From: a virus
DNA: 64,000 bases
Strand: one strand, 5' to 3'
Virus record (IMG/VR): IMGVR_UViG_3300032116_000102
Location: 1-64,000 of that record
Below are positions 15,225-35,942 of this stretch, in pieces (position 1 is the first letter of the stretch; each line of letters begins with the position of its first letter). The notes below the pieces were generated by a model. That model was not told the DNA's origin, searched no databases, and saw nothing but the letters and a program-made list of their open reading frames with translations. Position numbers and translations under genes: made by a program.

Positions 15225-15250
15225 ACGTCGAGCTGGACGTTAAACGTAGC
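15225..15250 (+). ncRNA. Degenerate copy of pseudoknot leader (family D)
   Basis: ACGTC-gagctg-GACGT-TAAAC-gtagc, 23 nt before ATG 15274. Confidence 0.35.
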
Positions 15251-15273
15251 GCTACCCCATCGCAACTTCACTC

Positions 15274-15456
15274 ATGTTTGCAGTTACCTACTTCGACTAC
15301 GGCTGCCCCGACTTCGGTGGTCAAGAGTATTACGAGGAGGAGAAGTTGTTCTCCAACTGGCCTGCTGCCGAAAGGTACATTCGTTCCCTCGAGGATTACG
15401 AATTCATCTCGGCGGTATATCACTTCAGCTGCTTCGAAGACGACATTCCGTTCTGA
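15274..15456 (+). CDS. Small acidic early protein ending in an SSB-like tail (FEDDIPF)
   Basis: 60 aa, acidic/aromatic; first gene of the plus-strand early region. Confidence 0.65.
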   Translation: MFAVTYFDYGCPDFGGQEYYEEEKLFSNWPAAERYIRSLEDYEFISAVYHFSCFEDDIPF

Positions 15457-15519
15457 GTACCAGGCGTGACGCCAGGGGATCGAATCCCCTACTCAGTATT
15501 GCCCCCAGCGGAGATGGGC
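15453..15519 (+). ncRNA. Structured leader family A, copy 1 (T-loop-like junction)
   Basis: CTGAGTA/TACTCAG closing stem, GGCG/CGCC hairpin, AGGGG-ATCGAAT-CCCCT, then TATTGCC hairpin. Confidence 0.55.
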
Positions 15520-15528
15520 GCCGCACAC

Positions 15529-15693
15529 ATGGAGAAATCCGTGATGGTCTACGTTGTCACATTGTGTGATCTGTATGCTGATCACCTGATGAATGTCTTT
15601 AGCAGCAAAGAAGCTGCTAATGCATGGATAGCGAAACAGGACAAGGAGGAGGGCGAGTATTGGCTTATCAATGCCATGGTCGTCATCAACTGA
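15529..15693 (+). CDS. Small early hypothetical protein
   Basis: MEKSVMVYVVTL...VFSSKEAANAWI; start reassigned downstream of the RNA element. Confidence 0.55.
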   Translation: MEKSVMVYVVTLCDLYADHLMNVFSSKEAANAWIAKQDKEEGEYWLINAMVVIN

Positions 15694-15754
15694 TCCGTCA
15701 AAGCGGGTTCCAGGGTGCAAACCCCTGGACAGTTATTGCCACAATCCCGTGGCA
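15688..15754 (+). ncRNA. Structured leader family A, copy 2
   Basis: AACTG/CAGTT, ATCCG/CGGGT, TCCAGGG-TGCAAAC-CCCTGGA, then TATTGCCAC...GTGGCA. Confidence 0.55.
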
Positions 15755-15769
15755 TCCACTCAACGCAAC

Positions 15770-15937
15770 ATGATTCGTCAGCGATTGTCCCAGCTTCTTG
15801 CCGTAGCAGCGGTCAAGGTAGCTCAAGATCAAACTCCTGAGCGCATCAAAGCTCAACTCAAAGTGCGGCGTGATGCATTGACTCATGAGGTCAATGATTA
15901 TCGCAACGCACTGTCCAACTTCATCGCAGCTAAGTAA
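15770..15937 (+). CDS. Small early hypothetical protein
   Basis: MIRQRLSQLLAVAAVK...; CA-rich leader. Confidence 0.55.
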   Translation: MIRQRLSQLLAVAAVKVAQDQTPERIKAQLKVRRDALTHEVNDYRNALSNFIAAK

Positions 15938-15939
15938 CC

Positions 15940-16182
15940 ATGAAACCTGTCATGATCTACCAGCCTTCCTGCGAACATAACTTACGTGTCGCATGGTATG
16001 GCGGTGAGAGTACACAACTTCACTTCGAGAAGCTCAACATCCAGGGCGAGTGGTACGACAGAGATGTCCGTACCCTTGGCCATGGTATCCCCACAGGGAT
16101 CAAGGAGATGCTTCTCGAGATGGAGAACTACTATCACGAAGGTATCATCCTTGAACAAGAACGTATTTACCAAATGATGTGA
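15940..16182 (+). CDS. Early hypothetical protein
   Basis: ORF track; tight packing. Confidence 0.6.
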   Translation: MKPVMIYQPSCEHNLRVAWYGGESTQLHFEKLNIQGEWYDRDVRTLGHGIPTGIKEMLLEMENYYHEGIILEQERIYQMM

Positions 16183-16185
16183 ATG

Positions 16186-16235
16186 ATTCCTGCTCTAAGG
16201 GGCTACGGCCCTTTACTGCAGGAATTAACTCCTGC
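16186..16235 (+). ncRNA. Structured leader family B, copy 1
   Basis: TCCTGC-TC-stemloop-CT-GCAGGA-N6-TCCTGC. Confidence 0.55.
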
Positions 16236-16259
16236 TTCATTCAACTCAACTCAAGTCAA

Positions 16260-16661
16260 ATGTCTGACTACAAGAAGCTCCCTGACTTCCAGCAAACCGT
16301 ACTGCACGGACGCATTGCTCACATGGAGGTGGTCGACTACCAGGATCAGAAGTTCCTCTCTGTATCCCTGGTCCACACCATCTCCGAAGCAACGGACGTA
16401 CGTGTACGGTTTACCAACAGCAACGGCCTGCTTACGGCATTCAACAATGGCACTCTTGTCGTAGGACAGGAGCTGACCATCAGCGGTACCATCAAGGGCA
16501 TTCGTTCCTTCTACATGAAGGACGATGTCCTGACACCGCTCAAGATGCCGGAACTTCAATTCCGTTGCATGAGTTATGCCTTTGGTTCCAAGCCTCAGCC
16601 CAAAGCTGAAGCTGTAATCACACCAGTGGCAGAACCTACGCTGGAAGAAATTCCCTTCTGA
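16260..16661 (+). CDS. SSB-like OB-fold protein
   Basis: VLHGRIA...VGQELTISGTI strand pattern; acidic C-terminal EEIPF. Confidence 0.6.
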   Translation: MSDYKKLPDFQQTVLHGRIAHMEVVDYQDQKFLSVSLVHTISEATDVRVRFTNSNGLLTAFNNGTLVVGQELTISGTIKGIRSFYMKDDVLTPLKMPELQFRCMSYAFGSKPQPKAEAVITPVAEPTLEEIPF

Positions 16662-16669
16662 GACAGCAC

Positions 16670-16741
16670 TCCTGCTCTTAACCCTTCCGTTGATACGAAT
16701 TCGTATCGGCGGTGGGTTTACTGCAGGACTGAACATCCTGC
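16670..16741 (+). ncRNA. Structured leader family B, copy 2 (contains palindrome copy 2 at 16692-16707)
   Basis: TCCTGC-TC-stemloop-CT-GCAGGA-N7-TCCTGC. Confidence 0.55.
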
Positions 16742-16760
16742 ATCCACCTCATACAACACT

Positions 16761-17045
16761 ATGCCAATCACCATTGATCATCACGACATCCTCAAAGCAC
16801 TTGGGCTTTACAAACTTGAGGTAACAGACTACTACCTTGAATTTGATAACAACCATGTTTATATGCATTGGGTTTCCTGTCCCAATGACATCGAAGAGTA
16901 CTTGAAGAATGAGAATGATATTTATTTATGCCTTGACTTTCAAGTCAAGGGCAAATGGTTATCTGCTGAGTACTTTGTCAACGACAAAGAGGCGGTAACT
17001 GAACGTCCTTTCATTAACTGCCGTTATCTTTTGGAGATCAACTGA
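16761..17045 (+). CDS. Early hypothetical protein
   Basis: ORF track; follows a family B element. Confidence 0.6.
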   Translation: MPITIDHHDILKALGLYKLEVTDYYLEFDNNHVYMHWVSCPNDIEEYLKNENDIYLCLDFQVKGKWLSAEYFVNDKEAVTERPFINCRYLLEIN

Positions 17046-17046
17046 C

Positions 17047-17250
17047 ATGAAACACACAACCAGGCTCGGACCCAACCGTTACATCAGACTTGATTCTTAC
17101 GGTGAGTCTCGTGAGACACGCCGTTTCAATATCCTTTGCACCCTCTTCGTCATTGCCATCACGGTTATGACGGCTGGTGCAATGGTCGGCGTCGACATCA
17201 CTAACCTCAACCCACAGAACAATGAGAACACACATCGCCCTGGTCGCTGA
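17047..17250 (+). CDS. Small membrane protein
   Basis: One hydrophobic helix ILCTLFVIAITVMTAGAMVGV. Confidence 0.55.
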   Translation: MKHTTRLGPNRYIRLDSYGESRETRRFNILCTLFVIAITVMTAGAMVGVDITNLNPQNNENTHRPGR

Positions 17251-17449
17251 TCGTTCCGGTCGTTATGCCCATGTCTGGGGCACAGCCCAAACCTTTTCTC
17301 TGTTTCATGATCAACTCGAAGACATTGGCTGCGAGGTGATCGAAAACCAATCCGATGATTGGGACGGCTGCACCAGAGATGAAATTGCTGAGGACTGCCT
17401 GTCAGTGCATCAGCTGCTCAACGACTCGGACTTCATCCCACACGACTGA
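17222..17449 (+). CDS. Small acidic hypothetical protein
   Basis: MRTHIALVADRSGRYAHVWG... Confidence 0.55.
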   Translation: MRTHIALVADRSGRYAHVWGTAQTFSLFHDQLEDIGCEVIENQSDDWDGCTRDEIAEDCLSVHQLLNDSDFIPHD

Positions 17450-17556
17450 CTACATCTGGTGTCTCGCAAACACAAGACGCTAAGGCTGGTGCTTGCATCT
17501 TTGTACGTACCAGCTATTCTCTACCTGCATCCACTGCACACAGCTCACCCAAAGCC

Positions 17557-18036
17557 ATGGAAGCCCTTAGCCAACTTGATGTCACAGCACCCGATCACGT
17601 CTCTGTCATTACCAGGGACGGCAAGGTGACCATCTCTGTCCTCAAGGACGGAACCTCTGTCACTCTTGGTTTCCCGATCAAAACACCTTGGATTGATACG
17701 CATCCCCGTCCCCCTTTGCAGCAGTCGCCAGCGGAGGAGATTGGGCGGCGGATTACCAAGGAAGAAGGCCTTGCCTACTTCGAAGAGCTGGCACGGAAAG
17801 ACTCAAAGAACACCACTGTTGTTACCAAGACCAAACGCAGGTCTCCCATTGGTAATTGCAAGTTGACTCCCGAAGCTGTTCGTGAAATCAAGCTGATCCT
17901 GGCTGATAACAAGACGATGAGTCGTTTTGGTTCCAGGCAGCAAGCTTACGAAAAGATTGCCGAAGGCTATTCGGTGAGTCACCATACAATTTCCAACATC
18001 CATAAGGGACTGGCCTGGCGCCAAGTCATCGTGTAA
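17557..18036 (+). CDS. DNA-binding protein with C-terminal HTH of the type appended to HNH endonucleases
   Basis: KLTPEAVREIK...IAEGYSVSHHTISNIHKGLAW; no HNH motif. Confidence 0.55.
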   Translation: MEALSQLDVTAPDHVSVITRDGKVTISVLKDGTSVTLGFPIKTPWIDTHPRPPLQQSPAEEIGRRITKEEGLAYFEELARKDSKNTTVVTKTKRRSPIGNCKLTPEAVREIKLILADNKTMSRFGSRQQAYEKIAEGYSVSHHTISNIHKGLAWRQVIV

Positions 18037-18058
18037 TCAACAGCAACAACACAAACAT

Positions 18059-18108
18059 CTGGGCCTCCACTCTTGAGAATCATTCTCAGTAAGTGGTATA
18101 AGTCCCAG
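18059..18108 (+). ncRNA. Structured leader family C, copy 1
   Basis: CTGGG-CCT-CCACT...AGTGG-TATAAGT-CCCAG. Confidence 0.65.
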
Positions 18109-18132
18109 GACATTCATTCAGTTCACCTCAAC

Positions 18133-18339
18133 ATGACTGAAGACAACAAACGGTATCACCTCATCATCAACGTTGATGAGAAGTATGCCATCGTCAATGC
18201 ACTAGCTTTTTATCATGCTCATCACACGCTTGGTTCTTTGCTTGACGAAGACGAGCGTGAACAATATGAGCTTGCATTCAAAGAAGATGGTCCAACTCTT
18301 GTTGATACATTAGCCACAAGAGTTGCCAATACCTTCTGA
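18133..18339 (+). CDS. Early hypothetical protein
   Basis: MTEDNKRYHLIINVD...; start placed after the RNA element. Confidence 0.6.
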   Translation: MTEDNKRYHLIINVDEKYAIVNALAFYHAHHTLGSLLDEDEREQYELAFKEDGPTLVDTLATRVANTF

Positions 18340-18367
18340 AAACCACACACTTCACTCAATTCAAACC

Positions 18368-18505
18368 ATGACTAACCTTCAAACACTTGACGAAAATTAC
18401 AATGCTGATCTTCTAGATGCAATGGCTGACATTGCAGCTGAACAAGAAGAATCAATGCGTAACTCAGATCCACAAGAATGGGAGGGTTACGATGACGAAT
18501 CGTAA
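18368..18505 (+). CDS. Small acidic protein
   Basis: MTNLQTLDENYNADLLDAMAD...; CA-rich leader. Confidence 0.5.
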   Translation: MTNLQTLDENYNADLLDAMADIAAEQEESMRNSDPQEWEGYDDES

Positions 18506-18580
18506 GCACGAAGATGACATCGTTATTGTCATCATTGCCATCATCTCCATTCTGATCACCACACTCATCGACGCAATCCA

Positions 18581-18949
18581 ATGTCTTACATCTCTGAACT
18601 CCAAAAGTTCTACCCCAGAACCTACAAAGCTCGTCTCGCCATCCAACGATACGAAACCCACAAAGAGTGGGAACACGAAATCCCAACGACTGTCACCGTC
18701 CACGAAACCACGCTCAACTACGGCGGTCCAGAGGAAGGTGGATGGTGGTACCAAGCAGGACTCCCGGTCCTTACCCACTGCATCTTCTCCAAGAAGCAAG
18801 CGGTCCAAACCTTCATCCAATACTTCGACGAATACGAAGTCGCGGACCAGCCAAGCCTCGGGCTTTCAACAACATATCACAACTACGAAGTCAACTTCGC
18901 CAATGGATACGCTACTGTCTACCCCGAATCCAAACCACACTACTGCTGA
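18581..18949 (+). CDS. Phage hypothetical protein
   Basis: YGGPEEGGWWY motif; normal composition, unlike the overlapping frames. Confidence 0.65.
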   Translation: MSYISELQKFYPRTYKARLAIQRYETHKEWEHEIPTTVTVHETTLNYGGPEEGGWWYQAGLPVLTHCIFSKKQAVQTFIQYFDEYEVADQPSLGLSTTYHNYEVNFANGYATVYPESKPHYC

Positions 18950-19197
18950 TGACTCTAACTCAGATCAAACCACCCGTAGGGTTGAGCATCAACCAACGGA
19001 ACCTCTACACATACTTTCTAAACCACAGGAAGAAGTACAAGCACACACCGTGCTACGTACCAAGGTGTCCCGGTCAAAACTCAAGGGTTGAACAATATCT
19101 CAATGCATTAATCAAGCTGGAACAATACGGCTTGATACGCGTTGACAGAAGCAGTGATCACTACACAAGTTGGATCATGCTTCCACCAAAGAACTAA
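18949..19197 (+). CDS. Small winged-helix-like protein
   Basis: LSINQRNLYTYF...YLNALIKLEQYGLIRVDR. Confidence 0.5.
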   Translation: MTLTQIKPPVGLSINQRNLYTYFLNHRKKYKHTPCYVPRCPGQNSRVEQYLNALIKLEQYGLIRVDRSSDHYTSWIMLPPKN

Positions 19198-19276
19198 TCA
19201 CCTACGTCATATAACACTTCCGTTATATTGTTTGCTATTCGCAAATAGCGAATACATGCCAATACTTCAATCCACA

Positions 19277-19317
19277 CCTGGGCATCACCAACGTAAGTAC
19301 GGTGTGTAAGTCCCAGG
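19277..19317 (+). ncRNA. Structured leader family C, copy 2
   Basis: CCTGGG-CAT-CACC...GGTG-TGTAAGT-CCCAGG. Confidence 0.65.
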
Positions 19318-19345
19318 ATTTACTCAAACTTTACCTCACTTCACC

Positions 19346-19549: not shown

Positions 19550-19682
19550 GTCAGCCCCCTACAACCCCCGAGGAAGTACCAGGGGGGATACCTTTAGTTC
19601 TATAAGAAACTATTATGTATTCCCCCTTATCCACTCCTTGACAACCCTGGTAGACTCAACACACTTACCACACACTCAACTC

Positions 19683-20250: not shown

Positions 20251-20251
20251 A

Positions 20252-20313: not shown

Positions 20314-20335
20314 CTGTCCACTTACTCAACTCAAC

Positions 20336-20891: not shown

Positions 20892-20919
20892 CGTCCTGGA
20901 CATGACGTTAAACTGTCCA
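20892..20919 (+). ncRNA. H-type pseudoknot leader (family D)
   Basis: CGTC-C-TGGACA-T-GACG-TTAAAC-TGTCCA. Confidence 0.7.
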
Positions 20920-20941
20920 TTCCTTTTACCCATTCAATTCA

Positions 20942-22648
20942 ATGCATTTCCAACTTCCCTCCAACCTCCAACAAGAACTCCTGGCTTATGATCCAAAGCT
21001 CAAGGCTTTGGTTAAGCAGGATGACAACAAGAAGCCTGCTAAGAAAGCTAAGTATCCCCTTGGCAACATCCCGCATCTCATCCCTGAAGACATCGTGCGC
21101 TCCAGCTACCAACAGGATGCAATCAACTACATCAACTCACAGCTAGCACCAGGGCGCTTTCGTTTGTTTACCAAGCTTGTGGACGTAGCAAGTTCACAAG
21201 CACGCACTGTACCTATTGCTGTTATTTATCACTTCGAGCAATGCTGGTACGCAGCATGGCTTCCACAGAAAGGCGAAGACTATGTCTATGGCTACGCCTA
21301 CGCATTCAAGAACACCTCAGCTGCTGCTAAGCAAGTTCCAAACAGCATCTGGAACAGCAAAGAACAGTGCACTGAACACACCATCGGTCGTGGTGCACAG
21401 GTCTTTACCTACTCAAGAACAGTAACTAAGCAAGACATTATCAACGGCAAGGACGGTCGCAACTGGCGTGCGATGGGTATAGCTAGCTACTACCAGAAGA
21501 CATGCGATATCAATGAAGCAATCAACTCGTTTGATTCTGCATTGATGGAAACCATTCCTACATGGAGTGACTGTCGTTCTATGTTTGATCGCTTGCGTTG
21601 CAACAACATTGTTGATGCACTTGATATGCCTTCTTTCTTTAGCAAGCCTATTGCCGATAAGACTAAGTATGAACTCACGATTGATAACTTGATTGCAACA
21701 TCTAAGTTACTAAAGAATGACTATGGTTATTCTTCTTACGGTACATGTTTAACCAAGACTGAAGCAATCATTACTACTCCGTATATTAAGAAGCAGCTTC
21801 AAGCAATGCTTGATCGTTCAACTGCTGAGTACAGCAACCCAGAGAATACACAACGGAAGGCTATCAAGTATGGCTTCAAGGAATTTGAGCAGACCTGTAA
21901 TTCTATTGAATTCATTATTCGTATCTGGCCTGATTGCCCTATTGACCACTACCGTACTTACTTCAATGAACTACGTTGCATCAACTTAAACAACCTGAGG
22001 TATGACGAACGTCTTGTCGAATGGCTACGCACCAACATGTCTGTTGCATCGTTCTTCAACATGCTGCGTAAGTTCAATGAGGCAGAACCTACCTCTCATC
22101 GCAGTTCATACAGTGACTATGATTACCACGTCAAATCATTCTTTGAAATGAATGACACTTTCTCCATGATCATGCGCATCCTGGAGAACGACAAACAAAT
22201 CGAGGCACCTAAGCGCTGGCGCATGCCTGACTTCCATGACTACGTGCAAGCCGAAGCATGGAAGGTAACCAACCGCAAGGAATCACTGCACCAGGATTTG
22301 TTCCCTACTCCGATCAAGGTCAACGTAGACGGCAGTGACTGGACATTCTTCCAGCCTGTCGACACACACCAGCTGGCACAGTGGGGACAAGCAGTCCGTA
22401 ACTGTGTGGGTTCTGCAGGACGCTATGCAGATGACATCAAGAAACGCAAGCACTTCATTGTGCTCTGCATGATTGATGGCAAGCCCACCTTCACCATCCA
22501 ACTGGATGTATCCATGGGTGTCATGAACGTCGTACAGATTGCTGGCGTAGCGAACCAGCGCCTGTCTGTTGACCAACATGAGCAGTACTCCACTGCCTTC
22601 AAGCAAGCCTTGCAATCTCGTGAATCTGAGCTAAGCTCTAAGAGCTGA
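20942..22648 (+). CDS. PcfJ-like domain protein
   Basis: C-terminal FHDYV...LAQWGQAVRNCVGS...FTIQL...VQIAGVAN. Confidence 0.7.
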   Translation: MHFQLPSNLQQELLAYDPKLKALVKQDDNKKPAKKAKYPLGNIPHLIPEDIVRSSYQQDAINYINSQLAPGRFRLFTKLVDVASSQARTVPIAVIYHFEQCWYAAWLPQKGEDYVYGYAYAFKNTSAAAKQVPNSIWNSKEQCTEHTIGRGAQVFTYSRTVTKQDIINGKDGRNWRAMGIASYYQKTCDINEAINSFDSALMETIPTWSDCRSMFDRLRCNNIVDALDMPSFFSKPIADKTKYELTIDNLIATSKLLKNDYGYSSYGTCLTKTEAIITTPYIKKQLQAMLDRSTAEYSNPENTQRKAIKYGFKEFEQTCNSIEFIIRIWPDCPIDHYRTYFNELRCINLNNLRYDERLVEWLRTNMSVASFFNMLRKFNEAEPTSHRSSYSDYDYHVKSFFEMNDTFSMIMRILENDKQIEAPKRWRMPDFHDYVQAEAWKVTNRKESLHQDLFPTPIKVNVDGSDWTFFQPVDTHQLAQWGQAVRNCVGSAGRYADDIKKRKHFIVLCMIDGKPTFTIQLDVSMGVMNVVQIAGVANQRLSVDQHEQYSTAFKQALQSRESELSSKS

Positions 22649-23383: not shown

Positions 23384-23412
23384 ACTCAACACTCAACACT
23401 CAACACAACATC

Positions 23413-27484: not shown

Positions 27485-27487
27485 CTT

Positions 27488-27784: not shown

Positions 27785-27803
27785 TAGTCCCGAACGGGAA
27801 GAT

Positions 27804-27831
27804 GGACCTGAGCACGTCCTTAAACTACTCA
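27804..27831 (+). ncRNA. H-type pseudoknot leader (family D)
   Basis: GGAC-C-TGAGCA-C-GTCC-TTAAAC-TACTCA; stem 1 compensated relative to the other copies. Confidence 0.65.
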
Positions 27832-27864
27832 TTAGTTTTATTTATCATTCAATTCATCACAATC

Positions 27865-28632
27865 ATGAAACTCCTCAAGTTCTCCAGTGGTAATGCCAAG
27901 CTGCGTAATCGTTTGATCTTCAGCCTGCCAGCTGGTTATTCGTGTCCACATGCTGGTGTCTGCAAGACCATGGCTGATCGGGTCACTGGTGAGATCCGTG
28001 ACCTGCCTCAGCTTACAGGCACACAAGCAGATGACTACCGCTGCTTTGCTGCTATGGCAGAGACCAGGCCCAACGTACGTGATGCTCGTTGGCACAACTG
28101 GGATCTGCTGCGTGAAACTATCCACATGAACGGCAATCAAGTCACACTTCTCCGTGACCTGATCGATATGTCCCTCTTGATGCACGCACCAAAACCTTTG
28201 GTACGCATCCATGAGTCAGGTGACTTTTGGACTGAGAACTACATGAGGGCTTGGATGATGGTTGCCAGGGAACGGCCCAACCAAAAGTTCTACGCATTTA
28301 CAAAATCATTAGGCATGTGGATTAATCTGCGTGAGCAGATCCCATCCAACTTCTATCTCACCGCATCCTTCGGTGGGACACTTGATTACCTCATTCCAAA
28401 GTATCCACACGTTTTTCAACGAGTTGCTTATGTGGTTTACACAGAAGCTGAGGCAGCAGAGCGTGGGCTGGAGATCGACCATGACGACAGCCATTGCTTA
28501 GGTGACAAACCGTTTGCACTCCTGGTCCATGGGTCCCAGAGGGCTGGGTCCGACGCAAGCAAAGCCATCTCTCAACGCAAGAAGGAAGGTGGCTTTGTGG
28601 GATACAGCACATCAAAACAAAAGACAACTTGA
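27865..28632 (+). CDS. Gp88-like phage protein
   Basis: GNAKL, FSLPAGYSCP..C..C, RIHESGDF, FYAFTKS. Confidence 0.7.
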   Translation: MKLLKFSSGNAKLRNRLIFSLPAGYSCPHAGVCKTMADRVTGEIRDLPQLTGTQADDYRCFAAMAETRPNVRDARWHNWDLLRETIHMNGNQVTLLRDLIDMSLLMHAPKPLVRIHESGDFWTENYMRAWMMVARERPNQKFYAFTKSLGMWINLREQIPSNFYLTASFGGTLDYLIPKYPHVFQRVAYVVYTEAEAAERGLEIDHDDSHCLGDKPFALLVHGSQRAGSDASKAISQRKKEGGFVGYSTSKQKTT

Positions 28633-30725: not shown

Positions 30726-30727
30726 TC

Positions 30728-30976: not shown

Positions 30977-31240
30977 ATGGATTACCTTGACATCACCAAA
31001 ATAGAGCAGTGCCCAGTCTGCGAAGTCAGCTGGATTCATTCCTATATTCCTCAAGAATCTATTGACAAAGGTTATTATTCACCAGAGTCAAAATTCTTTA
31101 GCCGTGTTATTGGTGTGGAGTATCTGGGCACTGACCGTATTAATCATTATCAGTGTCCTGATTGTGGTCAATGTTGGAATAGAAAAGGTGAGATGATTGA
31201 AGTTAAACATAAACCAGTTGATCTCTCGTCCTTGAGGTAA
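30977..31240 (+). CDS. Small zinc-ribbon protein
   Basis: CPVC...CPDC. Confidence 0.6.
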   Translation: MDYLDITKIEQCPVCEVSWIHSYIPQESIDKGYYSPESKFFSRVIGVEYLGTDRINHYQCPDCGQCWNRKGEMIEVKHKPVDLSSLR

Positions 31241-31256
31241 GACGTTAAACTGCCTC
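31227..31256 (+). ncRNA. H-type pseudoknot leader (family D)
   Basis: CGTC-ctt-GAGGTA-a-GACG-TTAAAC-TGCCTC. Confidence 0.65.
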
Positions 31257-31278
31257 TCACACAACCTTCTGGCATCAC

Positions 31279-32094
31279 ATGAACCAAGCTTTTGTCTGTG
31301 CTCAAACCACAGAAGAACCCCGTGAGGTTTCTATCTCTGCAACCTCGTACGCCCTGCGTTGCAACATCCTTCTACCACCTGTTGGTAATAAGGCACCTAC
31401 TCCAATTGAACTCAACGTCTACGGCAAGAACTCTGAGCGATTTGCACGCACTGCAAAGAACTCATTGATCTATATCCATGGCGCCAAGTTGCGTTATGAC
31501 TTGGAGTCACGCACCCATTCACTTCATGGTGGTGTGATTACCACGGTCACAGAATCCTTTCCGATTTTGAACACAATCATCCTCAGTGGTCGTTGTGTTA
31601 AAGACATTCAACAGGATGATACGCGTGCCTTTAAGACAACAGCAGAAGGCCTGATGATTTGCAATCAGACGCTCTCTGTTAATACAGGGCGTAACCAAGC
31701 AGATCTCTTTAACTTTTACGCAATCAACTCCCATCAAGACAAGCTGAATAATGCTCAGCTTTTGGTAGACTTCACTCGCAAGGGCACAGGCCTGACGATC
31801 AATGGTCGTCTGGTTACTGATGCCTGGCAAGATAAGGAAACCAATCAGCGCCGCAGCATCACCAAGATTCAACTGGTTTCCATGACCTTGGCACCAAAAG
31901 CATCGGGTGATACAGCAGCTCAGCCGATCAAGGCACAGACTGTGGTCGCTAATGCAGATAACGTCACTCCACTCTGGGGTGGACGCACCGCTGAAGAACC
32001 AACAGATCCCTGGAACGCAGCATCGGGTGGTGGACTGCCAGATCTGCCTGGGCAATACGGCAATGCACCTGACCTTGAAGAGGTTCCTTTCTGA
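31279..32094 (+). CDS. ssb: Single-stranded DNA-binding protein (tandem OB folds)
   Basis: NTIILSGRCVKD...RKGTGLTINGRLVTDAWQDKETNQRRS; C-terminal DLEEVPF. Confidence 0.75.
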   Translation: MNQAFVCAQTTEEPREVSISATSYALRCNILLPPVGNKAPTPIELNVYGKNSERFARTAKNSLIYIHGAKLRYDLESRTHSLHGGVITTVTESFPILNTIILSGRCVKDIQQDDTRAFKTTAEGLMICNQTLSVNTGRNQADLFNFYAINSHQDKLNNAQLLVDFTRKGTGLTINGRLVTDAWQDKETNQRRSITKIQLVSMTLAPKASGDTAAQPIKAQTVVANADNVTPLWGGRTAEEPTDPWNAASGGGLPDLPGQYGNAPDLEEVPF

Positions 32095-32336
32095 TGTCAA
32101 CACCAACTCACGATCAATTCACTTTTCTTTACGAAGACGAAGGCAAAAAAGTTTTGTGCGAATTCCAGGCGGTCTTCACTGAAGAAGTCGTCCGGGAATT
32201 TGCAGACTTTGTACGGGGCTGTGGGCATCATGACGACAATGTTTTTGGTGCCATGGCTCAGTTAGCTGCAGACTACTTTGAGTGTAAAGAGAATCCTGTC
32301 CTTCCAATTGCTAAGGACAATGAGGATCTAGACTGA
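32094..32336 (+). CDS. Hypothetical protein
   Basis: ORF track; TGATG overlap. Confidence 0.6.
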   Translation: MSTPTHDQFTFLYEDEGKKVLCEFQAVFTEEVVREFADFVRGCGHHDDNVFGAMAQLAADYFECKENPVLPIAKDNEDLD

Positions 32337-32341
32337 GCCTC

Positions 32342-32369
32342 CGTCCTGGGATGACGTTAAACTCATCCA
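32342..32369 (+). ncRNA. Pseudoknot leader (family D), variant
   Basis: CGTC-CTGGGAT-GACG-TTAAAC-TCATCCA. Confidence 0.55.
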
Positions 32370-32389
32370 CTCCTGACTACGAACAAACC

Positions 32390-33406
32390 ATGACTACCTC
32401 CATGACCACCAAGAAAACTGCTGCGCTTGCAACACGTGGACTCGACTCCTTCCGGATGTTTCAGTCCAAAGAATTTGTATCTGGCTACCAGAACCTCGTC
32501 ACAATTCAACCTCTCAACAAATCAAAAGTACGCGGATGGTTCATCCGTAAATCCGATCTTGATACCTGCGGTTGGCTTGCAACTGAAGATCAGTTTGCTA
32601 AAGGCTCAGTCATCTGGGATTACAAGCAAACGTTTGGCATGGCACCCAACACCTCCGTTGAAGAGGGCTTGAACTTTACTGAGCCACGCATTCAAATCCT
32701 GTTGCGTTCTCCTCTGATGGTTGAAGAAACCACAGGAATGCGTCAAACGATTGGTACCTTTGAGCACCCAGAGGTTAAGGAATTGTTTGATGCCGACAAG
32801 ATTGCAGCCGACCTTGCCAACAGCAAGGGCGAGATGTACAAGCGTAAGTACAGCGTACGCACCAAATACCTCATCTACATTGTGACTGAGGACAACAAGC
32901 GTGCCCATAAGATCCCAATGGTCCTTACCCTCAAGGGTCTAAACGGTACCGATGTATCCGATAAGGTCAAGCTGTACGAGAAAGAAATGTCCAAGTGCCT
33001 GAGCAAGGCGCTGGATTCTGAAGTGCCCCTTGCCTTTAATGAAAAGTTCTACGCCACTACCGTATTTGCTCCGGTACTTGCCAATGAGATGCGTGGAGCC
33101 AACAACGTTGAGATCTGCGCAATTGAATCTTTTGACATCCCTGATTACAGCGATCAAGACGCCGCCGTCGAATCGCTGAGCCGCATGTCAATTCCTGATG
33201 AAGATCGTGAATCAACCTGGAAGTTCCAGGAGATGTTTGGTGATTACATCAATCAACATGCACGTCAAGATGCAGAGAAGTTGGGTGGTGCCTATGGCAT
33301 CAAGCAAGGTGTCGAGATTCTGCCTGTGTCCCGTACCACGGATACAGTTGATGTGAAGGCTCTGCCCTCTCGTGATCCAATGACTGGAGAAGACAGCTCA
33401 CTTTGA
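32390..33406 (+). CDS. Hypothetical protein of the replication/recombination module
   Basis: 338 aa next to ssb; family not recognised with confidence. Confidence 0.65.
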   Translation: MTTSMTTKKTAALATRGLDSFRMFQSKEFVSGYQNLVTIQPLNKSKVRGWFIRKSDLDTCGWLATEDQFAKGSVIWDYKQTFGMAPNTSVEEGLNFTEPRIQILLRSPLMVEETTGMRQTIGTFEHPEVKELFDADKIAADLANSKGEMYKRKYSVRTKYLIYIVTEDNKRAHKIPMVLTLKGLNGTDVSDKVKLYEKEMSKCLSKALDSEVPLAFNEKFYATTVFAPVLANEMRGANNVEICAIESFDIPDYSDQDAAVESLSRMSIPDEDRESTWKFQEMFGDYINQHARQDAEKLGGAYGIKQGVEILPVSRTTDTVDVKALPSRDPMTGEDSSL

Positions 33407-33658
33407 GTTGACATCTGGGTTAGCCAATCCGTCAGGTTCAACTGAAACATTGTTGAAAATGAACATGTCTTGGACTAACCCACGAATTACACCTTGACGT
33501 TGCGTAGCGATCCTTGCTAAAAGGGTCGCTATTTCCTTTAACGTATTAACCGAATCACAATCTTGAATTGATCGTTTGACTTTTTCTTCCCAGAACTTGT
33601 CATCAAGCGTTGGTTCGATTTGAAATTTGGTTAAAGGTACGTATTTAATTTCGTCCAT
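33398..33658 (-). CDS. NblA-like phycobilisome degradation adaptor (putative)
   Basis: PTLDDKFWEEKVKRSIQDCDSVNTLKEIATLLARIATQRQGVIRGLVQ fits the NblA helix-loop-helix pattern; own TAGAAT box. Confidence 0.5.
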   Translation of the reverse strand: MDEIKYVPLTKFQIEPTLDDKFWEEKVKRSIQDCDSVNTLKEIATLLARIATQRQGVIRGLVQDMFIFNNVSVEPDGLANPDVNSK

Positions 33659-33739
33659 TTTGTATTAATTTGTTGCAACAATTCTACTTACCTAATCAAC
33701 TACCACGCAAACTTTCCATTTGTGTTAAGGATTCCTAAC

Positions 33740-33949
33740 ATGAAACCTGAAGAAACGTCAGCGATTAAAACAGCTGGTGCAACATTTGCAGCTAGTGCAG
33801 TAGTTGCTTCTATCATTGGAAACCCCGTGTGCTGGGCCGCTGTTCTCTACGGCACCTACCGCATGGGCAAGGCTGCGTACAAACACGCCAAAGCCAATGC
33901 TAAGATCAAACCGAATCAGGAAGAAGACACGTCGTTTTGGCACGTCTGA
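33740..33949 (+). CDS. Small membrane protein
   Basis: MKPEETSAIKTAGATFAASAVVASIIG... Confidence 0.5.
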   Translation: MKPEETSAIKTAGATFAASAVVASIIGNPVCWAAVLYGTYRMGKAAYKHAKANAKIKPNQEEDTSFWHV

Positions 33950-33979
33950 TTTCCGTTCCACTCAACCCAACTCAAACTC

Positions 33980-34924
33980 ATGTCGATCCAGGCGCAGACC
34001 GAACTCCATTCGGCGCAAGCTCTTATTTATTCTCGCTCCAACATCCGGAGGGCGTATCCGGAATTTGATGACACCGCAATTGCTGGGATTTATTTGCGAG
34101 GCGACAATTGCATTGTGGTGCGTCATGATGGTAGCGAGCAAAGCTACGACCGGACACTAATCAAAGCTCGGTTCCAGACTTACACCAATCGTCTCAAAGA
34201 TTTCTTTTCTTACCTTGGTCCCAATTACCGTGGCCCTAGTGTATGGCATAACAATGCTTACATTCTTTTTAAGGGCTGGCACTACACGCACGCACTCGGA
34301 CATCTGACCTCCAATGCAAAACTACAAGCTCACTGGGCAGACAAATTTATACACGTATCAGACCCCGCTAAAATCACAGCGCTCCTTCAGTCTGACCAAA
34401 CGGACCTGGGCCATCTGGTGGCGCCAGACGGACTTCGGCTTCCGAATCGGCCGCTTGATATGGACACTGAGCTGGACGACAGCCAAGAACAACAGCCGTT
34501 GTTTGGCAAACCTAGCTGCTCGTGTGGGTCGTTTCAACGTCAGCTCAACAACCTATCTGCTTTCCAAGAAGAGATCGAGGGATTTAAACCCTGGTGCATC
34601 CATCTGACTTGGTTCAACAAGTACAGGGAACTATTGTGTAAGCGCACGGATGTCCGGAATGCCAGTCCTAGTGGTACCCCAGATAAGTGTGTGGCCTGGT
34701 GGTATGCACCGACCGCTGATCACGTCAGTGACGGACGCTTTGTTTTATTGCATACTAAGTCAGGGGCACAGGCTCCACTGACGCACTGGCGTACTTACAA
34801 ACCCAAAGAAGTGTTCACACAGCATGATGCTTGGGATTTATTTTTCAATATGATGGAGGCGGGTTACACACCATTCCCTGGTACATCACTGCCACAACTC
34901 AAAGCTGCTATCAAAAAACAATGA
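33980..34924 (+). CDS. SWIM zinc-finger domain protein
   Basis: CSCGSF...WCIH. Confidence 0.6.
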   Translation: MSIQAQTELHSAQALIYSRSNIRRAYPEFDDTAIAGIYLRGDNCIVVRHDGSEQSYDRTLIKARFQTYTNRLKDFFSYLGPNYRGPSVWHNNAYILFKGWHYTHALGHLTSNAKLQAHWADKFIHVSDPAKITALLQSDQTDLGHLVAPDGLRLPNRPLDMDTELDDSQEQQPLFGKPSCSCGSFQRQLNNLSAFQEEIEGFKPWCIHLTWFNKYRELLCKRTDVRNASPSGTPDKCVAWWYAPTADHVSDGRFVLLHTKSGAQAPLTHWRTYKPKEVFTQHDAWDLFFNMMEAGYTPFPGTSLPQLKAAIKKQ

Positions 34925-35178
34925 CACCTGACACAAAAGAACTGGTTGACAAAGCACTTGAGTTGCTTGATAAACCAGTTGAAGCTAAAGCAACCACTGA
35001 ATTTCACACCTATCACCTTGAAATCCCTGATGATATCCACTGGATTTTGGTGGCATTGGGGGCAGGATCCAAACAACATCAAGAAGATTATGCAGAAAAA
35101 GTATTGATTGATTACGCTGTCTTGTGTTATGACCGCATGGCAGCTATGGATTCAGACAAAACTAAACAAGAAAAATGA
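34921..35178 (+). CDS. Hypothetical protein
   Basis: MTPDTKELV...; paralogous to the next ORF. Confidence 0.55.
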   Translation: MTPDTKELVDKALELLDKPVEAKATTEFHTYHLEIPDDIHWILVALGAGSKQHQEDYAEKVLIDYAVLCYDRMAAMDSDKTKQEK

Positions 35179-35342
35179 TGTTATCTAACGGCAAATACTC
35201 TTTGCACCTTGAGGTTGATGAAGACACCTACTGGGGTCTTGTTAAACTTGGTGCCGAGATTAGAACCGATTGTGAAACCTATGCAGAAAACCTACTTGGA
35301 GGACATGTTGAATCTGAACTCGATCGAAAAGCTGCAGATTGA
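35175..35342 (+). CDS. Small hypothetical protein (55 aa)
   Basis: MMLSNGKYSLHLEVDEDTYWGLVKLGA...; not in the ORF track. Confidence 0.5.
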   Translation: MMLSNGKYSLHLEVDEDTYWGLVKLGAEIRTDCETYAENLLGGHVESELDRKAAD

Positions 35343-35485
35343 ATACATTGATGAAGAGGATGGTACCGGTACCATTCATATTGAATGGGATGACACAGAT
35401 CCTGATCTTCAATGGTGGACCGACTTGGGTCCAGAAGGTCAAGAAACCTTTATAATTGATGCACTCTATGCTGCCCTTGAGTGCT

Positions 35486-35878
35486 ATGTCGATTGACACC
35501 TACGGACTCCCGTCCGAGCAATACGAAGAGTTCTTTGAAGACAACCTACAATTTTCTGCAAAGCTCTACGTCAAGGCCTGTCAGATCCTTAGGGATAACG
35601 GTGCTGGTGCCATTGATTTCAAGACGACTCTTGATCTGTATCAAGAAGCTATCTATGGAACCAATGATGACTGTCGCAAGTACCAGAAGGTCAACAACCC
35701 TGAAGCCGTCAAGGACAACGATTTGTTTGGCCTGACCCCATCCAGGGAAGAGCTGATGGAAGAGATCCAGGCTGTCAACGTCAAGGTTGAAGCGCTGGTC
35801 GACTACATCGCACGGCTAGTCGAGACCACAACCGATGGTCTCGATCGACTAGCTGAAGCCATGGATAAAGACGCTTGA
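35486..35878 (+). CDS. Hypothetical protein
   Basis: MSIDTYGLPSEQY... Confidence 0.6.
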   Translation: MSIDTYGLPSEQYEEFFEDNLQFSAKLYVKACQILRDNGAGAIDFKTTLDLYQEAIYGTNDDCRKYQKVNNPEAVKDNDLFGLTPSREELMEEIQAVNVKVEALVDYIARLVETTTDGLDRLAEAMDKDA

Positions 35879-35914
35879 CTGGCCTGGTAGACTAATATCC
35901 CACGGGGGTGTGGG

Positions 35915-35942
35915 CGTCCTGGTCATGACGGTAAACTGACCA
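35915..35942 (+). ncRNA. H-type pseudoknot leader (family D)
   Basis: CGTC-C-TGGTCA-T-GACG-GTAAAC-TGACCA. Confidence 0.7.

What the first reader, a model, noticed from the sequence alone, without database searches (positions are those of the whole stretch)
15225..35942. Repeated compact H-type pseudoknot in 5' leaders, with covariation in both stems (family D)
Seen: consensus CGTC-C-TGnnnA-Y-GACG-TTAAAC-TnnnCA at 20892, 27804, 31227, 32342 and 35915, and degenerate at 15225. Stem 1 changes to GGAC/GTCC in one copy. Stem 2 varies with compensation (TGGACA/TGTCCA, TGGTCA/TGACCA, GAGGTA/TGCCTC, TGAGCA/TACTCA). The TAAAC linker is invariant. Each ends 19-33 nt before a start codon, followed by a G-poor leader. 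Known: the T4/T2 gene 32 operator is a pseudoknot with a 1-nt loop 1 and a 6-7 bp stem 2, followed by unstructured RNA on which SSB nucleates to repress translation. Inference: one copy precedes the phage ssb, so this may be a multi-gene translational regulon read by the SSB, or a 5'-exonuclease (RNase J) block that stabilises processed mRNAs.
Basis: partly seen in the sequence, partly recalled or inferred. Interest (0 to 1): 0.82.

Follow-up and report, generated by a model that had tools for sequence, protein, structure and literature searches.

The report
Coremin-like RNA pseudoknots between cyanophage genes
Five gaps between early genes of this lake cyanophage hold the same 28-base knotted RNA fold, which occurs in phages of many bacterial groups and matches the plant-virus 'coremin' RNA that physically stops RNA-degrading enzymes and ribosomes. 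It probably shields the message behind it and is not an SSB switch, but this job is untested in bacteria.

Summary
The window is the first 64 kb of an 85.6-kb S-EIV1-like cyanophage. It carries five solid copies of a 28-30 nt H-type pseudoknot at 20892, 27804, 31227, 32342 and 35915, plus a hairpin-and-linker-only copy at 15226. All are on the coding strand, 18-33 nt before an ATG.

No Rfam family matches. On 94 distinct sequences from many phages both stems covary:
- Stem 1, pair 1: CG 66, AU 7, GC 6, UA 6, UG 5.
- Stem 1, pair 3: UA 86, AU 8.
- Stem 2: four of six pairs covary.
- The loop C, the A-U pair and the linker AAAC are invariant.

Orthologous junctions in the isolate S-EIVl carry compensated changes.

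The conserved core equals the coremin Xrn1-resistant motif of plant and fungal RNA viruses, with the same mutational tolerance. It is a Watson-Crick pseudoknot version of that motif.

The element is pan-phage. It occurs in about 87 S. aureus phages, Streptococcus, Lactobacillus and Enterococcus (pro)phages (there upstream of head-scaffold genes), Actinobacteria, Paracoccus and T4-like cyanophages. This variant gave no match in 28 Gb of E. coli genomes.

The SSB-operator reading is not supported. A 5'-to-3' roadblock (RNase J, or RNase E scanning) that protects the downstream cistron is the best-supported mechanism, and it is untested.

This scan found the same element in at least eight other windows, with the same reading.

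The parts
20892..20919 (+). Pseudoknot copy 1: CGTC-C-TGGACA-T-GACG-TTAAAC-TGTCCA. It lies 22 nt before the ATG at 20942 (568-aa PcfJ-like protein).
   Evidence: Model R1 scores it at 49 bits, E 5.5e-10. Leader and start codon. Pfam PcfJ.
27804..27831 (+). Pseudoknot copy 2: GGAC-C-TGAGCA-C-GTCC-TTAAAC-TACTCA. Stem 1 is compensated and stem 2 has one C.A mismatch. It lies 33 nt before the ATG at 27865 (GP88-family protein). A TCCCG-AA-CGGGA hairpin fills the 19-nt gap after the upstream TAA stop.
   Evidence: R1 31.4 bits, E 1e-5. Leader and start. Pfam GP88. The ortholog in S-EIVl has TGTC/GACA and CAAGCA/TGCTTG.
31227..31256 (+). Pseudoknot copy 3: CGTC-CTT-GAGGTA-A-GACG-TTAAAC-TGCCTC, with a 10-nt loop. 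The upstream ORF's TAA stop (31238-31240) lies inside the loop. It lies 22 nt before the ATG at 31279 (SSB).
   Evidence: R1 28.5 bits. Leader, start and upstream stop. Pfam SSB. The S-EIVl ortholog has CAAGCA/TGCTTT.
32342..32369 (+). Pseudoknot copy 4, divergent: CGTC-CTGGGAT-GACG-TTAAAC-TCATCCA, with a 7-nt loop. Stem 2 in the family register gives 3-4 pairs, and an alternative hairpin GGATGA/TCATCC competes with stem 1. The upstream TGA stop ends 5 nt before it. It lies 20 nt before the ATG at 32390 (DUF5895 protein).
   Evidence: (28.5 bits). Orthologs in related contigs have the canonical form, for example L014.
35915..35942 (+). Pseudoknot copy 5: CGTC-C-TGGTCA-T-GACG-GTAAAC-TGACCA. A CCCAC/GTGGG hairpin abuts its 5' side. 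It lies 19 nt before the ATG at 35962 (39-aa hydrophobic ORF, MFESLF...), which is followed by a Gp157-like gene.
   Evidence: R1 39.7 bits. Leader and ORF. The S-EIVl ortholog has AGTC/GACT and TGAGCA/TACTCA.
15226..15255 (+). Degenerate or partial copy: hairpin CGTC-GAGCTG-GACG plus TTAAAC, then a GTA-GCGC-TAC mini-hairpin. There is no family-type stem 2. It lies 18 nt before the ATG at 15274 (60-aa ORF).
   Evidence: R1 matches only GACGTTAAAC, 10.5 bits, E 1.2. Leader and ORF.
20920..20941 (+). Example of the G-poor leader without a Shine-Dalgarno sequence between pseudoknot and start codon. The other leaders are 27832-27864, 31257-31278, 32370-32389 and 35943-35961.
   Evidence: Family-wide leader composition is A 0.30, C 0.34, G 0.07, T 0.29. 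Similar G-poor CAACTCAA-type leaders also precede genes without a pseudoknot, for example 23413 and 33980, so the leader type is not specific to the element.

Best explanation
Each copy is transcribed as part of the phage's rightward early/replication message and folds into a compact H-type pseudoknot. The parts are:
- Stem 1: 4 bp, N-G-N-C / G-N-C-N.
- Loop 1: one invariant C.
- Stem 2: 5-6 bp of free sequence, closed by an invariant A-U pair.
- A 1-nt junction.
- Loop 3: N-W-A-A-A-C, which would run along the stem 1 minor groove.

It is the phage counterpart of the coremin exoribonuclease-resistant RNA (xrRNA_C, and its Watson-Crick variant) of plant and fungal RNA viruses. Most likely it works without a dedicated protein, as a direction-dependent mechanical roadblock. 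After the long message is cut upstream, 5'-to-3' decay stops at the 5' edge of the knot. The decay agent would be RNase J exonuclease, and possibly 5'-end-dependent scanning by RNase E. This would leave the downstream cistron with a defined, stable 5' end about 20-30 nt ahead of its start codon and an unstructured leader free for ribosome loading.

Shown here: the element, its fold by covariation, its coremin-like invariants, its gene-boundary position and its distribution. Inferred: that it blocks a nuclease, which nuclease it blocks, and that the downstream gene is the one that benefits.
For: Structure:
- 96.1% of cells are paired against 85.7% in shuffles (0/500), and 20-49% when partners are slid.
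- There are compensatory changes in both stems.
- Stem 1 was not part of the search model's structure, so its covariation is unbiased.
- Orthologous junctions in isolate S-EIVl differ by compensated changes.

Coremin match:
- The core GUCC..GACGUUAAAC-U is the published coremin sequence.
- The phage family varies exactly where coremin tolerates mutation (the first two linker bases, the outer stem pairs). It is invariant where coremin is essential (AAA, C, the following U, a pyrimidine as first loop base, a C-G loop-closing pair).
- A Watson-Crick pseudoknot version of coremin is functional, and coremin stalls ribosomes in E. coli frameshift reporters.

The downstream gene as beneficiary:
- In the cyanophage group the ATG lies at a sharp 19-28 nt after the knot.
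- In Firmicutes (pro)phages the element sits in the leader of head-scaffold genes from two PHROG families.
- In these contexts it often lies 4-9 nt after an intrinsic terminator that already ends the upstream unit.
- In S-CRM01 it starts 3 nt after a tRNA and 25 nt before a gene.
- Eight viral contexts have a divergent upstream gene.

Hosts: isolates with the element infect Cyanobacteria, Firmicutes, Actinobacteria and Alphaproteobacteria. From general knowledge these lineages have RNase J. This variant gave no match in 28 Gb of E. coli genomes.
Against: - There is no RNA-level evidence. No RNA run holds the phage, and the contigs laid could not show RNA ends.
- The most constant spacing is to the upstream stop codon. 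The mode is 5 nt in metagenomic phages, and 5, 6, 6, 6, 6, 7 and 9 nt in annotated isolates. The distance to the next start is variable outside cyanophages, 11-150 nt.
- In one Firmicutes contig a type III hammerhead cleaves 6-7 nt after each of four copies. In phages Molivia and NMeng1 a tRNA starts 2 nt after the knot. Processing there would cut the knot off from the downstream RNA.
- Coremin needs a second hairpin for Xrn1 resistance, and the window copies lack one.
- Methylophilales phage Melnitz carries the element although its host is a betaproteobacterium. Most of that group are thought to lack RNase J.
- Copy 32342 may fold differently.
Confidence: 0.45

Rival explanations
1. Ribosome roadblock or insulator tied to termination of the upstream ORF. 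The knot sits at the mRNA entry of a ribosome whose A site holds the stop codon. It would stop read-through, frameshifted or post-termination sliding ribosomes from entering the next unit, and so uncouple translation of neighbouring genes.
For: - The upstream stop (TAA, TGA or TAG) ends 5 nt before the knot in 33 of about 110 cyanophage-group contexts, and 5-11 nt in most others. It ends 5-9 nt before the knot in seven annotated isolates from five host groups.
- This is the spacing of frameshift-stimulating pseudoknots (general knowledge).
- Coremin blocks scanning ribosomes and stimulates -1 frameshifting, including in E. coli.
Against: - A stop codon already ends translation.
- In scaffold-gene contexts the upstream stop is 30-125 nt away and a terminator intervenes.
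- Some copies follow a tRNA or a divergent gene, with no upstream ORF.
- In 10 contexts, including window copy 31227, the stop lies inside the knot, so ribosomes must unwind it.
- The 5-nt minimum is equally expected if any very stable structure must simply not obstruct termination.
Confidence: 0.18
2. 3'-end cap for the upstream cistron. After cleavage just downstream (by RNase E in the G-poor leader, RNase P at a tRNA, or a hammerhead), the knot with a very short tail blocks 3'-to-5' exonucleases and stabilises the upstream message.
For: - Tight spacing to the upstream stop.
- Four copies are each followed within 6-7 nt by a hammerhead cleavage site in L182.
- A tRNA starts 2 nt after the knot in Molivia and NMeng1.
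- Convergent-gene contexts: 2 viral and 6 genomic.
- In L140 and L102 some copies are followed by terminator-like hairpins.
Against: - Pulling from the 3' side only unzips a 5-6 bp, A-U/G-U-rich stem 2. The reinforced side of such a knot, and the tested direction for coremin, is 5' (general knowledge of H-type knots).
- Hammerhead or tRNA adjacency is rare: 1 contig and 2 isolates among more than 220 instances.
- Where a terminator precedes the knot, the upstream 3' end is already defined.
- The upstream genes are mostly small ORFs or low-copy head proteins.
Confidence: 0.15
3. Binding site for a factor or ligand: a riboswitch-like or protein-operated translational or termination control element. 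This includes the first reader's SSB operator.
For: - One copy precedes ssb.
- Compact knots with an A-rich loop 3 are typical small aptamers (general knowledge).
- L102 has three tandem copies, two of them followed by weak hairpin-plus-U-run sequences.
- In Erysipelotrichaceae MAGs the knot is bracketed by a TACCT...AGGTA helix that overlaps the Shine-Dalgarno sequence.
Against: - Downstream genes are unrelated: PcfJ-like, GP88, SSB, DUF5895, a small membrane ORF, scaffold proteins, an ATPase and tRNAs.
- No phage-encoded partner is shared across host phyla.
- The same invariants work protein-free in eukaryotic virus RNAs.
- There is no expression platform in the window copies.
- There is no match to any riboswitch family.
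Confidence: 0.07
4. A DNA-level site: a promoter, operator or recombination site.
For: Some S. aureus phage records annotate a BPROM-predicted promoter that overlaps it.
Against: - Compensatory changes preserve pairing, not sequence.
- Strict co-orientation with genes: 1 antisense context of about 170.
- No sigma-70-like site lies upstream of any window copy, and promoter-like sites in the region number 16 against a shuffle mean of 26.2.
- G.U pairs are accepted, but their DNA complements would not pair.
Confidence: 0.02

Closest known systems
Coremin motif (xrRNA_C) of beny-, cucumo- and other plant and fungal RNA viruses, and its Watson-Crick variant xrRNA_WCC (Dilweg, Olsthoorn and co-workers: PMC6546385, PMC10520033, PMC10321173)
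   Same: - Core sequence (C)GUC-C...GAC(G)-UUAAAC-U.
- A short hairpin with a C-G loop-closing pair, and a pyrimidine as first loop base.
- An adenine before the last loop base.
- The first two linker bases are free, and AAA-C-U is fixed.
- Pairing of loop with the bases after AAAC, as proposed for coremin and shown for the Watson-Crick variant.
- Location at gene boundaries or untranslated regions, sometimes in tandem.
   Different: - The host is a dsDNA phage, not an RNA virus of eukaryotes.
- The loop is 8 nt rather than 4-6 nt, and its second base is U/C and paired rather than the required G.
- Stem 2 is 5-6 Watson-Crick pairs rather than 0-3.
- No second hairpin follows in the window copies.
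- Xrn1 does not exist in bacteria, so the target enzyme must differ.
- Nuclease resistance is untested.
T4/T2 gene 32 translational operator pseudoknot
   Same: A small H-type pseudoknot in a 5' leader, followed by unstructured RNA. One copy precedes an SSB gene.
   Different: The gene 32 operator is a single site read by its own product. This element is multi-copy, precedes unrelated genes, occurs in phages where it is nowhere near ssb, and has sequence invariants shared with protein-independent viral RNAs.
Pistol self-cleaving ribozyme (Rfam RF02679)
   Same: A hairpin whose loop forms a 6-bp pseudoknot with downstream sequence. Common near phage genes in Firmicutes (PMC6154101). One contig pairs the element with hammerhead ribozymes.
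   Different: No P2 or P3 helices and no G-U cleavage junction. The Rfam model gives no match at E up to 10.
5'-terminal stabilisers and protein barriers to RNase J or RNase E: B. subtilis 5' stem-loops and ribosome-bound Shine-Dalgarno stabilisers, and chloroplast PPR10-type intercistronic barriers (general knowledge; PMC5737220 for hbs)
   Same: The proposed logic: a block placed 20-100 nt ahead of a start codon defines and protects a processed 5' end inside an operon transcript.
   Different: Those are ordinary hairpins, bound ribosomes or proteins. This would be a self-contained, sequence-conserved tertiary fold shared across phyla.
GP20-b RNA motif (Rfam RF03003), a candidate cis-regulator upstream of phage scaffold (GP20) genes
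   Same: Same genomic niche in Firmicutes phages: the leader of the head-scaffold gene.
   Different: The RF03003 model does not match any of ten pseudoknot-bearing scaffold leaders at E up to 1. It has no hit over cut-off in five host genomes.

Membership tests
Coremin / xrRNA_C | 5' hairpin of 3-4 bp (GUC/GAC core) in which pairing matters more than sequence, with a pyrimidine-purine (C-G or U-A) loop-closing pair | tested here: met
   Stem 1 is 98.9% paired. Pairs 1 and 3 covary, and the loop-closing C-G is 94/94. Requirement taken from PMC6546385.
Coremin / xrRNA_C | Loop consensus YGAD or YGNNAD: a pyrimidine first, G second, A before the last base | tested here: inconclusive
   The first base C is invariant and the penultimate A is 93/94. 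The second base is U (or C) and pairs in stem 2 instead of being G. The last base is U, A or C. The loop is 8 nt. An octaloop is tolerated in the BNYVV context.
Coremin / xrRNA_C | Conserved spacer G-UU-AAA-C-U-A-C: UU tolerant; AAA, C, U and A essential | tested here: met
   The linker is TT, CT, GT, AT or TA followed by an invariant AAAC. The next base is U in 93/94. The one after is G or A, pairing with the loop. Mutational data.
Coremin / xrRNA_C | Second hairpin (hp2) directly after the spacer, required for Xrn1 resistance | tested here: not met
   The window leaders are G-poor and unstructured. The position of hp2 is taken by the 3' strand of stem 2. Only the partial copy 15226 and some Firmicutes contexts have a following hairpin.
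Coremin / xrRNA_C | Stalls a 5'-to-3' exoribonuclease at its 5' edge | not testable with these tools
   No RNA holder listed. The contigs laid cannot show RNA ends.
Watson-Crick coremin (xrRNA_WCC) | Canonical pairing between hairpin-loop bases and the bases after AAA(C) | tested here: met
   Four covarying pairs plus an invariant A-U, 94.1% paired. Here there are 5-6 bp rather than the 3 bp described.
T4 gene 32-type SSB operator | A single operator in the SSB gene's own leader, read by SSB | tested here: not met
   One of five window copies precedes ssb. Elsewhere the element precedes scaffold genes, or follows ssb.
Pistol ribozyme RF02679 | P2 and P3 helices and a G-U cleavage junction; match to the Rfam model | tested here: not met
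   No Pistol match at gathering score or at E up to 10 or 1.
GP20-b RNA RF03003 | Match to the Rfam covariance model | tested here: not met
   No hit at E up to 1 on ten scaffold-leader loci. The best hits in five host genomes are 16.8-19.3 bits against a cut-off of 36.2, and none lies at a pseudoknot.
preQ1-I and other pseudoknot riboswitches | Match to the Rfam models; a consistent downstream gene class | tested here: not met
   No match. The downstream genes are unrelated.

The most novel reading that the evidence does not exclude
Phages of many bacterial phyla use the same self-contained RNA fold as plant and fungal RNA viruses (coremin) to stop 5'-to-3' RNA decay. This would be the first exoribonuclease-resistant RNA class in the bacterial world. 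It would act on RNase J and/or RNase E scanning, carve long phage transcripts into stable single-gene messages, and be shared or re-invented across domains of life.
Probability: 0.4. Interest if true: 0.9.

Novelty: new variant of a known kind. Interest (0 to 1): 0.8.

Why it matters
Exoribonuclease-resistant RNAs are known only from RNA viruses of eukaryotes. None of the coremin papers read here mentions phages or bacteria, and full-text searches found no report of one in phages.

This element is tiny (28 nt) and absent from Rfam. It is present in hundreds of phage contigs and in cultured, tractable phages (S. aureus phiETA, 80, 55 and phiNM4 types, S-EIVl, S-SM2).

If it blocks RNase J, or RNase E scanning, three things follow:
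- It would explain how phages set different levels for neighbouring genes on one transcript, for example scaffold against portal.
- It would give a portable mRNA stabiliser for bacteria.
- The natural covariation would supply the missing structural model for coremin itself, whose pseudoknot is still unresolved.

If it instead acts on ribosomes or on 3' ends, it is still a new, widespread class of gene-boundary RNA.

Tried and rejected
- Rfam: gathering thresholds on the window and on 19 loci, and E-value mode on the region and on 10 scaffold loci, gave only tRNAs and hammerheads. Nothing lay on the element.
- Expression data: no RNA holder listed. The one 'RNA?' run is probably DNA and is kept as contigs. 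One contig starts at 31254, but contigs break at repeats, so this is not evidence.
- Promoters: no sigma-70-like site lies upstream of any copy, and promoter-like sites in the region are fewer than in shuffles.
- Hammerhead adjacency occurs in only one contig. tRNA adjacency occurs in only three isolates. Both are too rare to define function.
- A looser descriptor with free stem 1 and a longer linker was too noisy (28 hits in reversed controls) and was dropped.
- Shine-Dalgarno-less, G-poor leaders as a mark of the element: rejected, because genes without the knot have them too.
- E. coli genomes: no match, but the large database makes the E-value cut-off stricter, so weak variants could be missed.
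- Vibrio phage D456 and Stenotrophomonas phage BUCT704 hits have atypical or incomplete folds and were not counted.
- Pistol ribozyme likeness: topological only.

Full report
**What the window is.** The window is the first 64 kb of an 85,559-bp IMG/VR virus record. Its DNA and gene content relate it to Synechococcus phage S-EIVl, a freshwater cyanophage isolate. The region 15-43 kb is a rightward block of small early genes and replication genes. These include a PcfJ-like protein, GP88, family A DNA polymerase, SSB, DUF5895 and a Gp157-like protein.

| Copy | Sequence |
|---|---|
| 20892 | CGTC-C-TGGACA-T-GACG-TTAAAC-TGTCCA |
| 35915 | CGTC-C-TGGTCA-T-GACG-GTAAAC-TGACCA |
| 27804 | GGAC-C-TGAGCA-C-GTCC-TTAAAC-TACTCA (one C.A mismatch) |
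| 31227 | CGTC-CTT-GAGGTA-A-GACG-TTAAAC-TGCCTC |
| 32342 | CGTC-CTGGGAT-GACG-TTAAAC-TCATCCA |

- The 28-nt consensus occurs twice, against zero in 100 shuffles.
- A covariance model built only from other phages (R1) finds these five at 28.5-49 bits. It finds nothing else credible in the window or in the rest of the genome.
- The sixth site, 15226, has only the hairpin and TTAAAC (E about 1). It is followed by a GTA-GCGC-TAC mini-hairpin.
- Copy 32342 has lost one loop base. It can form a competing hairpin (-7.4 kcal/mol) that overlaps stem 1. Its orthologs in related contigs are canonical.
- Leaders to the next ATG are 18, 22, 33, 22, 20 and 19 nt, with 0-2 G each.

**The element is a large family and the fold is supported.** An exact-pattern scan of viral contigs fixed only CGTCCT, a 4-9 nt gap and GACGTTAAAC.

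- In most hits the six bases after TTAAAC complement the hairpin loop, with many different sequences.
- On the unfiltered 8-nt-loop hits plus three window copies (A1, 71 sequences), 93.5% of cells pair against 84.8% in shuffles (0/500). With slid partners only 20-50% pair.
- Because the loop is purine-rich and G.U is allowed, shuffled partners already pair fairly often. Perfect 6/6 stems occur in 35 of 68, against a shuffle mean of 14.7 and a maximum of 22. The signal is real but less extreme than it looks by eye.
- R1 models stem 2 only, so it cannot favour compensated stem 1 changes. It found 148 matches in 769 kb.
- The matches that depart from CGTC/GACG are GGTC/GACC, GGAC/GTCC, TGTC/GACA, AGTC/GACT and AGAC/GTCT.

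Pair counts on 94 distinct sequences (A2):

| Pair | Counts |
|---|---|
| Stem 1, pair 1 | CG 66, AU 7, GC 6, UA 6, UG 5, unpaired 4 |
| Stem 1, pair 3 | UA 86, AU 8, unpaired 0 |
| Stem 1, pairs 2 and 4 | invariant G-C and C-G |
| Stem 2, four pairs | covary |
| Stem 2, pair next to the linker | A-U in 93/94 |
| Stem 2, outermost pair | U-A or U-G in 71/93 |

A strict descriptor finds 220 instances in the fetched loci and none in reversed sequence.

**Orthologous sites.** The cultured phage S-EIVl has seven copies. Those ahead of its PcfJ-like, GP88, SSB, DUF5895 and MFE-peptide genes are orthologous to the window's five. They differ by compensated changes. Examples are GGAC/GTCC against TGTC/GACA, CGTC/GACG against AGTC/GACT, and GAGGTA/TGCCTC against CAAGCA/TGCTTT.

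**What it resembles.** A full-text search for the invariant decamer led to papers on the coremin motif GUCCGAAGACGUUAAACUAC. This is an Xrn1-resistant RNA of plant and fungal RNA viruses.

Published mutagenesis shows the following:
- The hairpin stem needs pairing rather than sequence.
- The loop-closing pair must be C-G or U-A.
- The loop starts with a pyrimidine.
- The two U after the stem can be changed.
- AAA, C, U and A cannot be changed.

The phage family varies and is fixed at exactly the corresponding places.

A later paper selected a 'Watson-Crick coremin' with canonical loop-to-spacer pairing. It showed that coremin stimulates -1 frameshifting, with the screen run in E. coli. Coremin also blocks scanning ribosomes.

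The differences are:
- The second loop base is not G.
- The loop is longer.
- Stem 2 is 5-6 bp.
- The hairpin hp2 needed by coremin is absent from the window copies.

None of these papers mentions phages or bacteria. Searches for xrRNA with phage or RNase J found nothing relevant. I reached this link before reading earlier notes of this scan. Those notes report the same element and the same reading from at least eight other windows.

**Distribution.**

- BLAST of two variants against isolate phages found about 87 S. aureus siphophages. These include B166, B122, B236, phiJB, phiETA, phiETA3, 80, 55, 29, 52A, 88, 92, X2, 96, phiNM4 and phiMR11.
- Other isolates with hits:
  - Firmicutes hosts: Streptococcus Javan407 and Javan384, Lactobacillus phiEF-1.1, Latilactobacillus phages, Geobacillus GR1, Moorella MTATph1.
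  - Actinobacterial hosts: Mycobacterium Labelle, Arthrobacter Molivia.
  - Proteobacterial hosts: Paracoccus ParMal1 and ParKuw1, Methylophilales phage Melnitz.
  - Cyanobacterial hosts: Nostoc NMeng1, Microcystis Mwe-JY13, and the T4-like cyanophages S-SM2, S-CRM01 and S-H35.
- I read the sequences of fourteen of these. The fold is present in twelve.
- One genome per species, searched with an 18-base pattern, gave 69 loci, against my rough estimate of about 17 from the collection's size. 55 of the 77 matches have at least 5/6 stem 2 pairs.
- These loci are mostly Firmicutes, with Saccharibacteria, Chloroflexota, phytoplasmas and Alphaproteobacteria.
- Two matches lie inside CRISPR spacers.
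- The commonest variant has no match in 28 Gb of E. coli genomes.

**Position.**

- The element is co-oriented with its neighbours. Only one context of about 170 has genes on the opposite strand on both sides.
- In the cyanophage group the next ATG lies mostly 19-28 nt downstream.
- The upstream ORF's stop codon ends most often exactly 5 nt before stem 1 (33 contexts, TAA and TGA about equally). Gaps of 6-11 nt account for most of the rest.
- In annotated isolates the gap is 5, 6, 6, 6, 6, 7 and 9 nt.
- With a stop codon in the A site, a 5-nt spacer puts the knot at about +11 from the P site. This is the mRNA entry of the ribosome, and the same spacing is used by frameshift stimulators (general knowledge).
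- I read this as the shortest distance at which an unusually unwinding-resistant structure does not obstruct termination. It equally fits a ribosome-directed role.
- In window copies with longer gaps (19 and 36 nt), a GC-rich hairpin fills the gap.

**Who benefits.** In Firmicutes (pro)phages the element lies in the leader of the head-scaffold gene.

- Six of six tested downstream proteins hit PHROG scaffold families 194 or 172.
- Annotated examples are B166, phiEF-1.1 and Javan407.
- The element lies 47-105 nt before the start, with a normal Shine-Dalgarno sequence.
- It is often 4-9 nt after an intrinsic terminator. There the upstream unit already has its 3' end, so the knot belongs to the downstream, highly expressed gene.
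- In S-CRM01 the knot begins 3 nt after tRNA-Tyr and 25 nt before a gene.
- Eight viral contexts have a divergent upstream gene.

These cases favour a 5'-side role.

Against this, one Firmicutes contig has a type III hammerhead whose cleavage site lies 6-7 nt after each of four knots. In Molivia and NMeng1 a tRNA starts 2 nt after the knot. Processing there leaves the knot at the 3' end of the upstream RNA. These cases are rare, but they keep a 3'-cap or two-way barrier role alive.

**Mechanism.** The window has no promoter-like sites ahead of the copies, so the knots are probably internal to long transcripts.

- Each helix alone is marginal, -2 to -5 kcal/mol.
- The invariant C, the G-C pairs and AAAC suggest a triplex-type knot.
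- The most economical reading is a protein-independent mechanical block to machinery arriving from the 5' side, as measured for coremin.
- In cyanobacteria and Firmicutes the obvious candidates are the 5'-to-3' exonuclease RNase J and 5'-end-dependent RNase E scanning (general knowledge).
- The host range of isolates fits RNase J, except for the betaproteobacterial host of Melnitz.
- I commit to this reading at 0.45. Rivals are a ribosome barrier (0.18), a 3' cap (0.15), a factor or ligand site including SSB (0.07) and a DNA site (0.02).
- The G-poor leader is not specific to the element. Other early genes without a knot have the same CAACTCAA-type leaders, and Shine-Dalgarno use is low genome-wide.

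**Verdict.** The SSB-regulon interpretation is not supported. The exonuclease-block alternative is the best available but rests on analogy. Relative to the literature and Rfam this is an undescribed phage variant of a known kind of RNA (coremin-type roadblock). Cultured S. aureus and cyanobacterial phages are available for a direct test.

Noticed in passing
L134:1168-2926 and L160:4787-5204: CRISPR arrays in a Bradymonadales MAG (37-nt repeat, at least 15 units) and a Calditrichia MAG (36-nt repeat). Each holds a spacer that contains the whole pseudoknot, so phages carrying the element are targeted in those hosts too.
   Followed up: partly
L182 (Firmicutes bacterium CAG:95 contig), four units at reverse-strand positions 2332, 2883, 4843, 5825: A repeated cassette: gene stop, 6-12 nt, pseudoknot, then 1-2 nt later a type III hammerhead (stem III CUGU/ACAG, cleavage after GUC). 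Rfam confirms two of the hammerheads over cut-off.
   Followed up: partly
L140 (Selenomonadaceae MAG), seven copies in 7 kb: The pseudoknots here are not next to long ORFs. Several are followed by strong intrinsic terminators and by a repeated unknown sequence ending CCGTTGAAACACGAAAAG. This may be a noncoding RNA array. There is no Rfam match.
   Followed up: no
L132, L133, L146, L148, L164, L167, L174, L191 (Erysipelotrichaceae/Bacilli MAGs): A variant with a weaker stem 2 is bracketed by a TACCT...AGGTA helix that overlaps the Shine-Dalgarno sequence of a conserved 70-79 aa protein (MKYYTL...). It looks like a possible switch arrangement.
   Followed up: no
L152, L161, L163, L188, L193, L196 (six alphaproteobacterial MAG species): A conserved chromosomal copy lies between convergent genes in high-GC genomes. 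It is not obviously in a prophage and may be the 3' part of a small RNA.
   Followed up: partly
window 35962-36081: A conserved 39-aa hydrophobic ORF (MFESLFAAVLPVV...) directly follows pseudoknot copy 5. The same ATGTTTGAA start follows the element in many related phages, including S-EIVl.
   Followed up: partly
window 23388-23412, 33955-33979, 36059-36083: G-poor leaders rich in CAACTCAA or ACTCAAC repeats precede early genes that have no pseudoknot. Classical Shine-Dalgarno sequences are rare in this genome (22 of 76 starts by a loose test).
   Followed up: partly
window 27788-27799 and 35899-35914: GC-rich hairpins (TCCCG-AA-CGGGA and CCCAC-GGGGGT-GTGGG) sit between the upstream stop codon and two of the pseudoknots. 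The first is conserved in related contigs L031 and L052.
   Followed up: no
L102:4620-4800: Three tandem pseudoknots about 75 nt apart. Two of them are followed by a CCCC...GGGG hairpin and a U-run.
   Followed up: no
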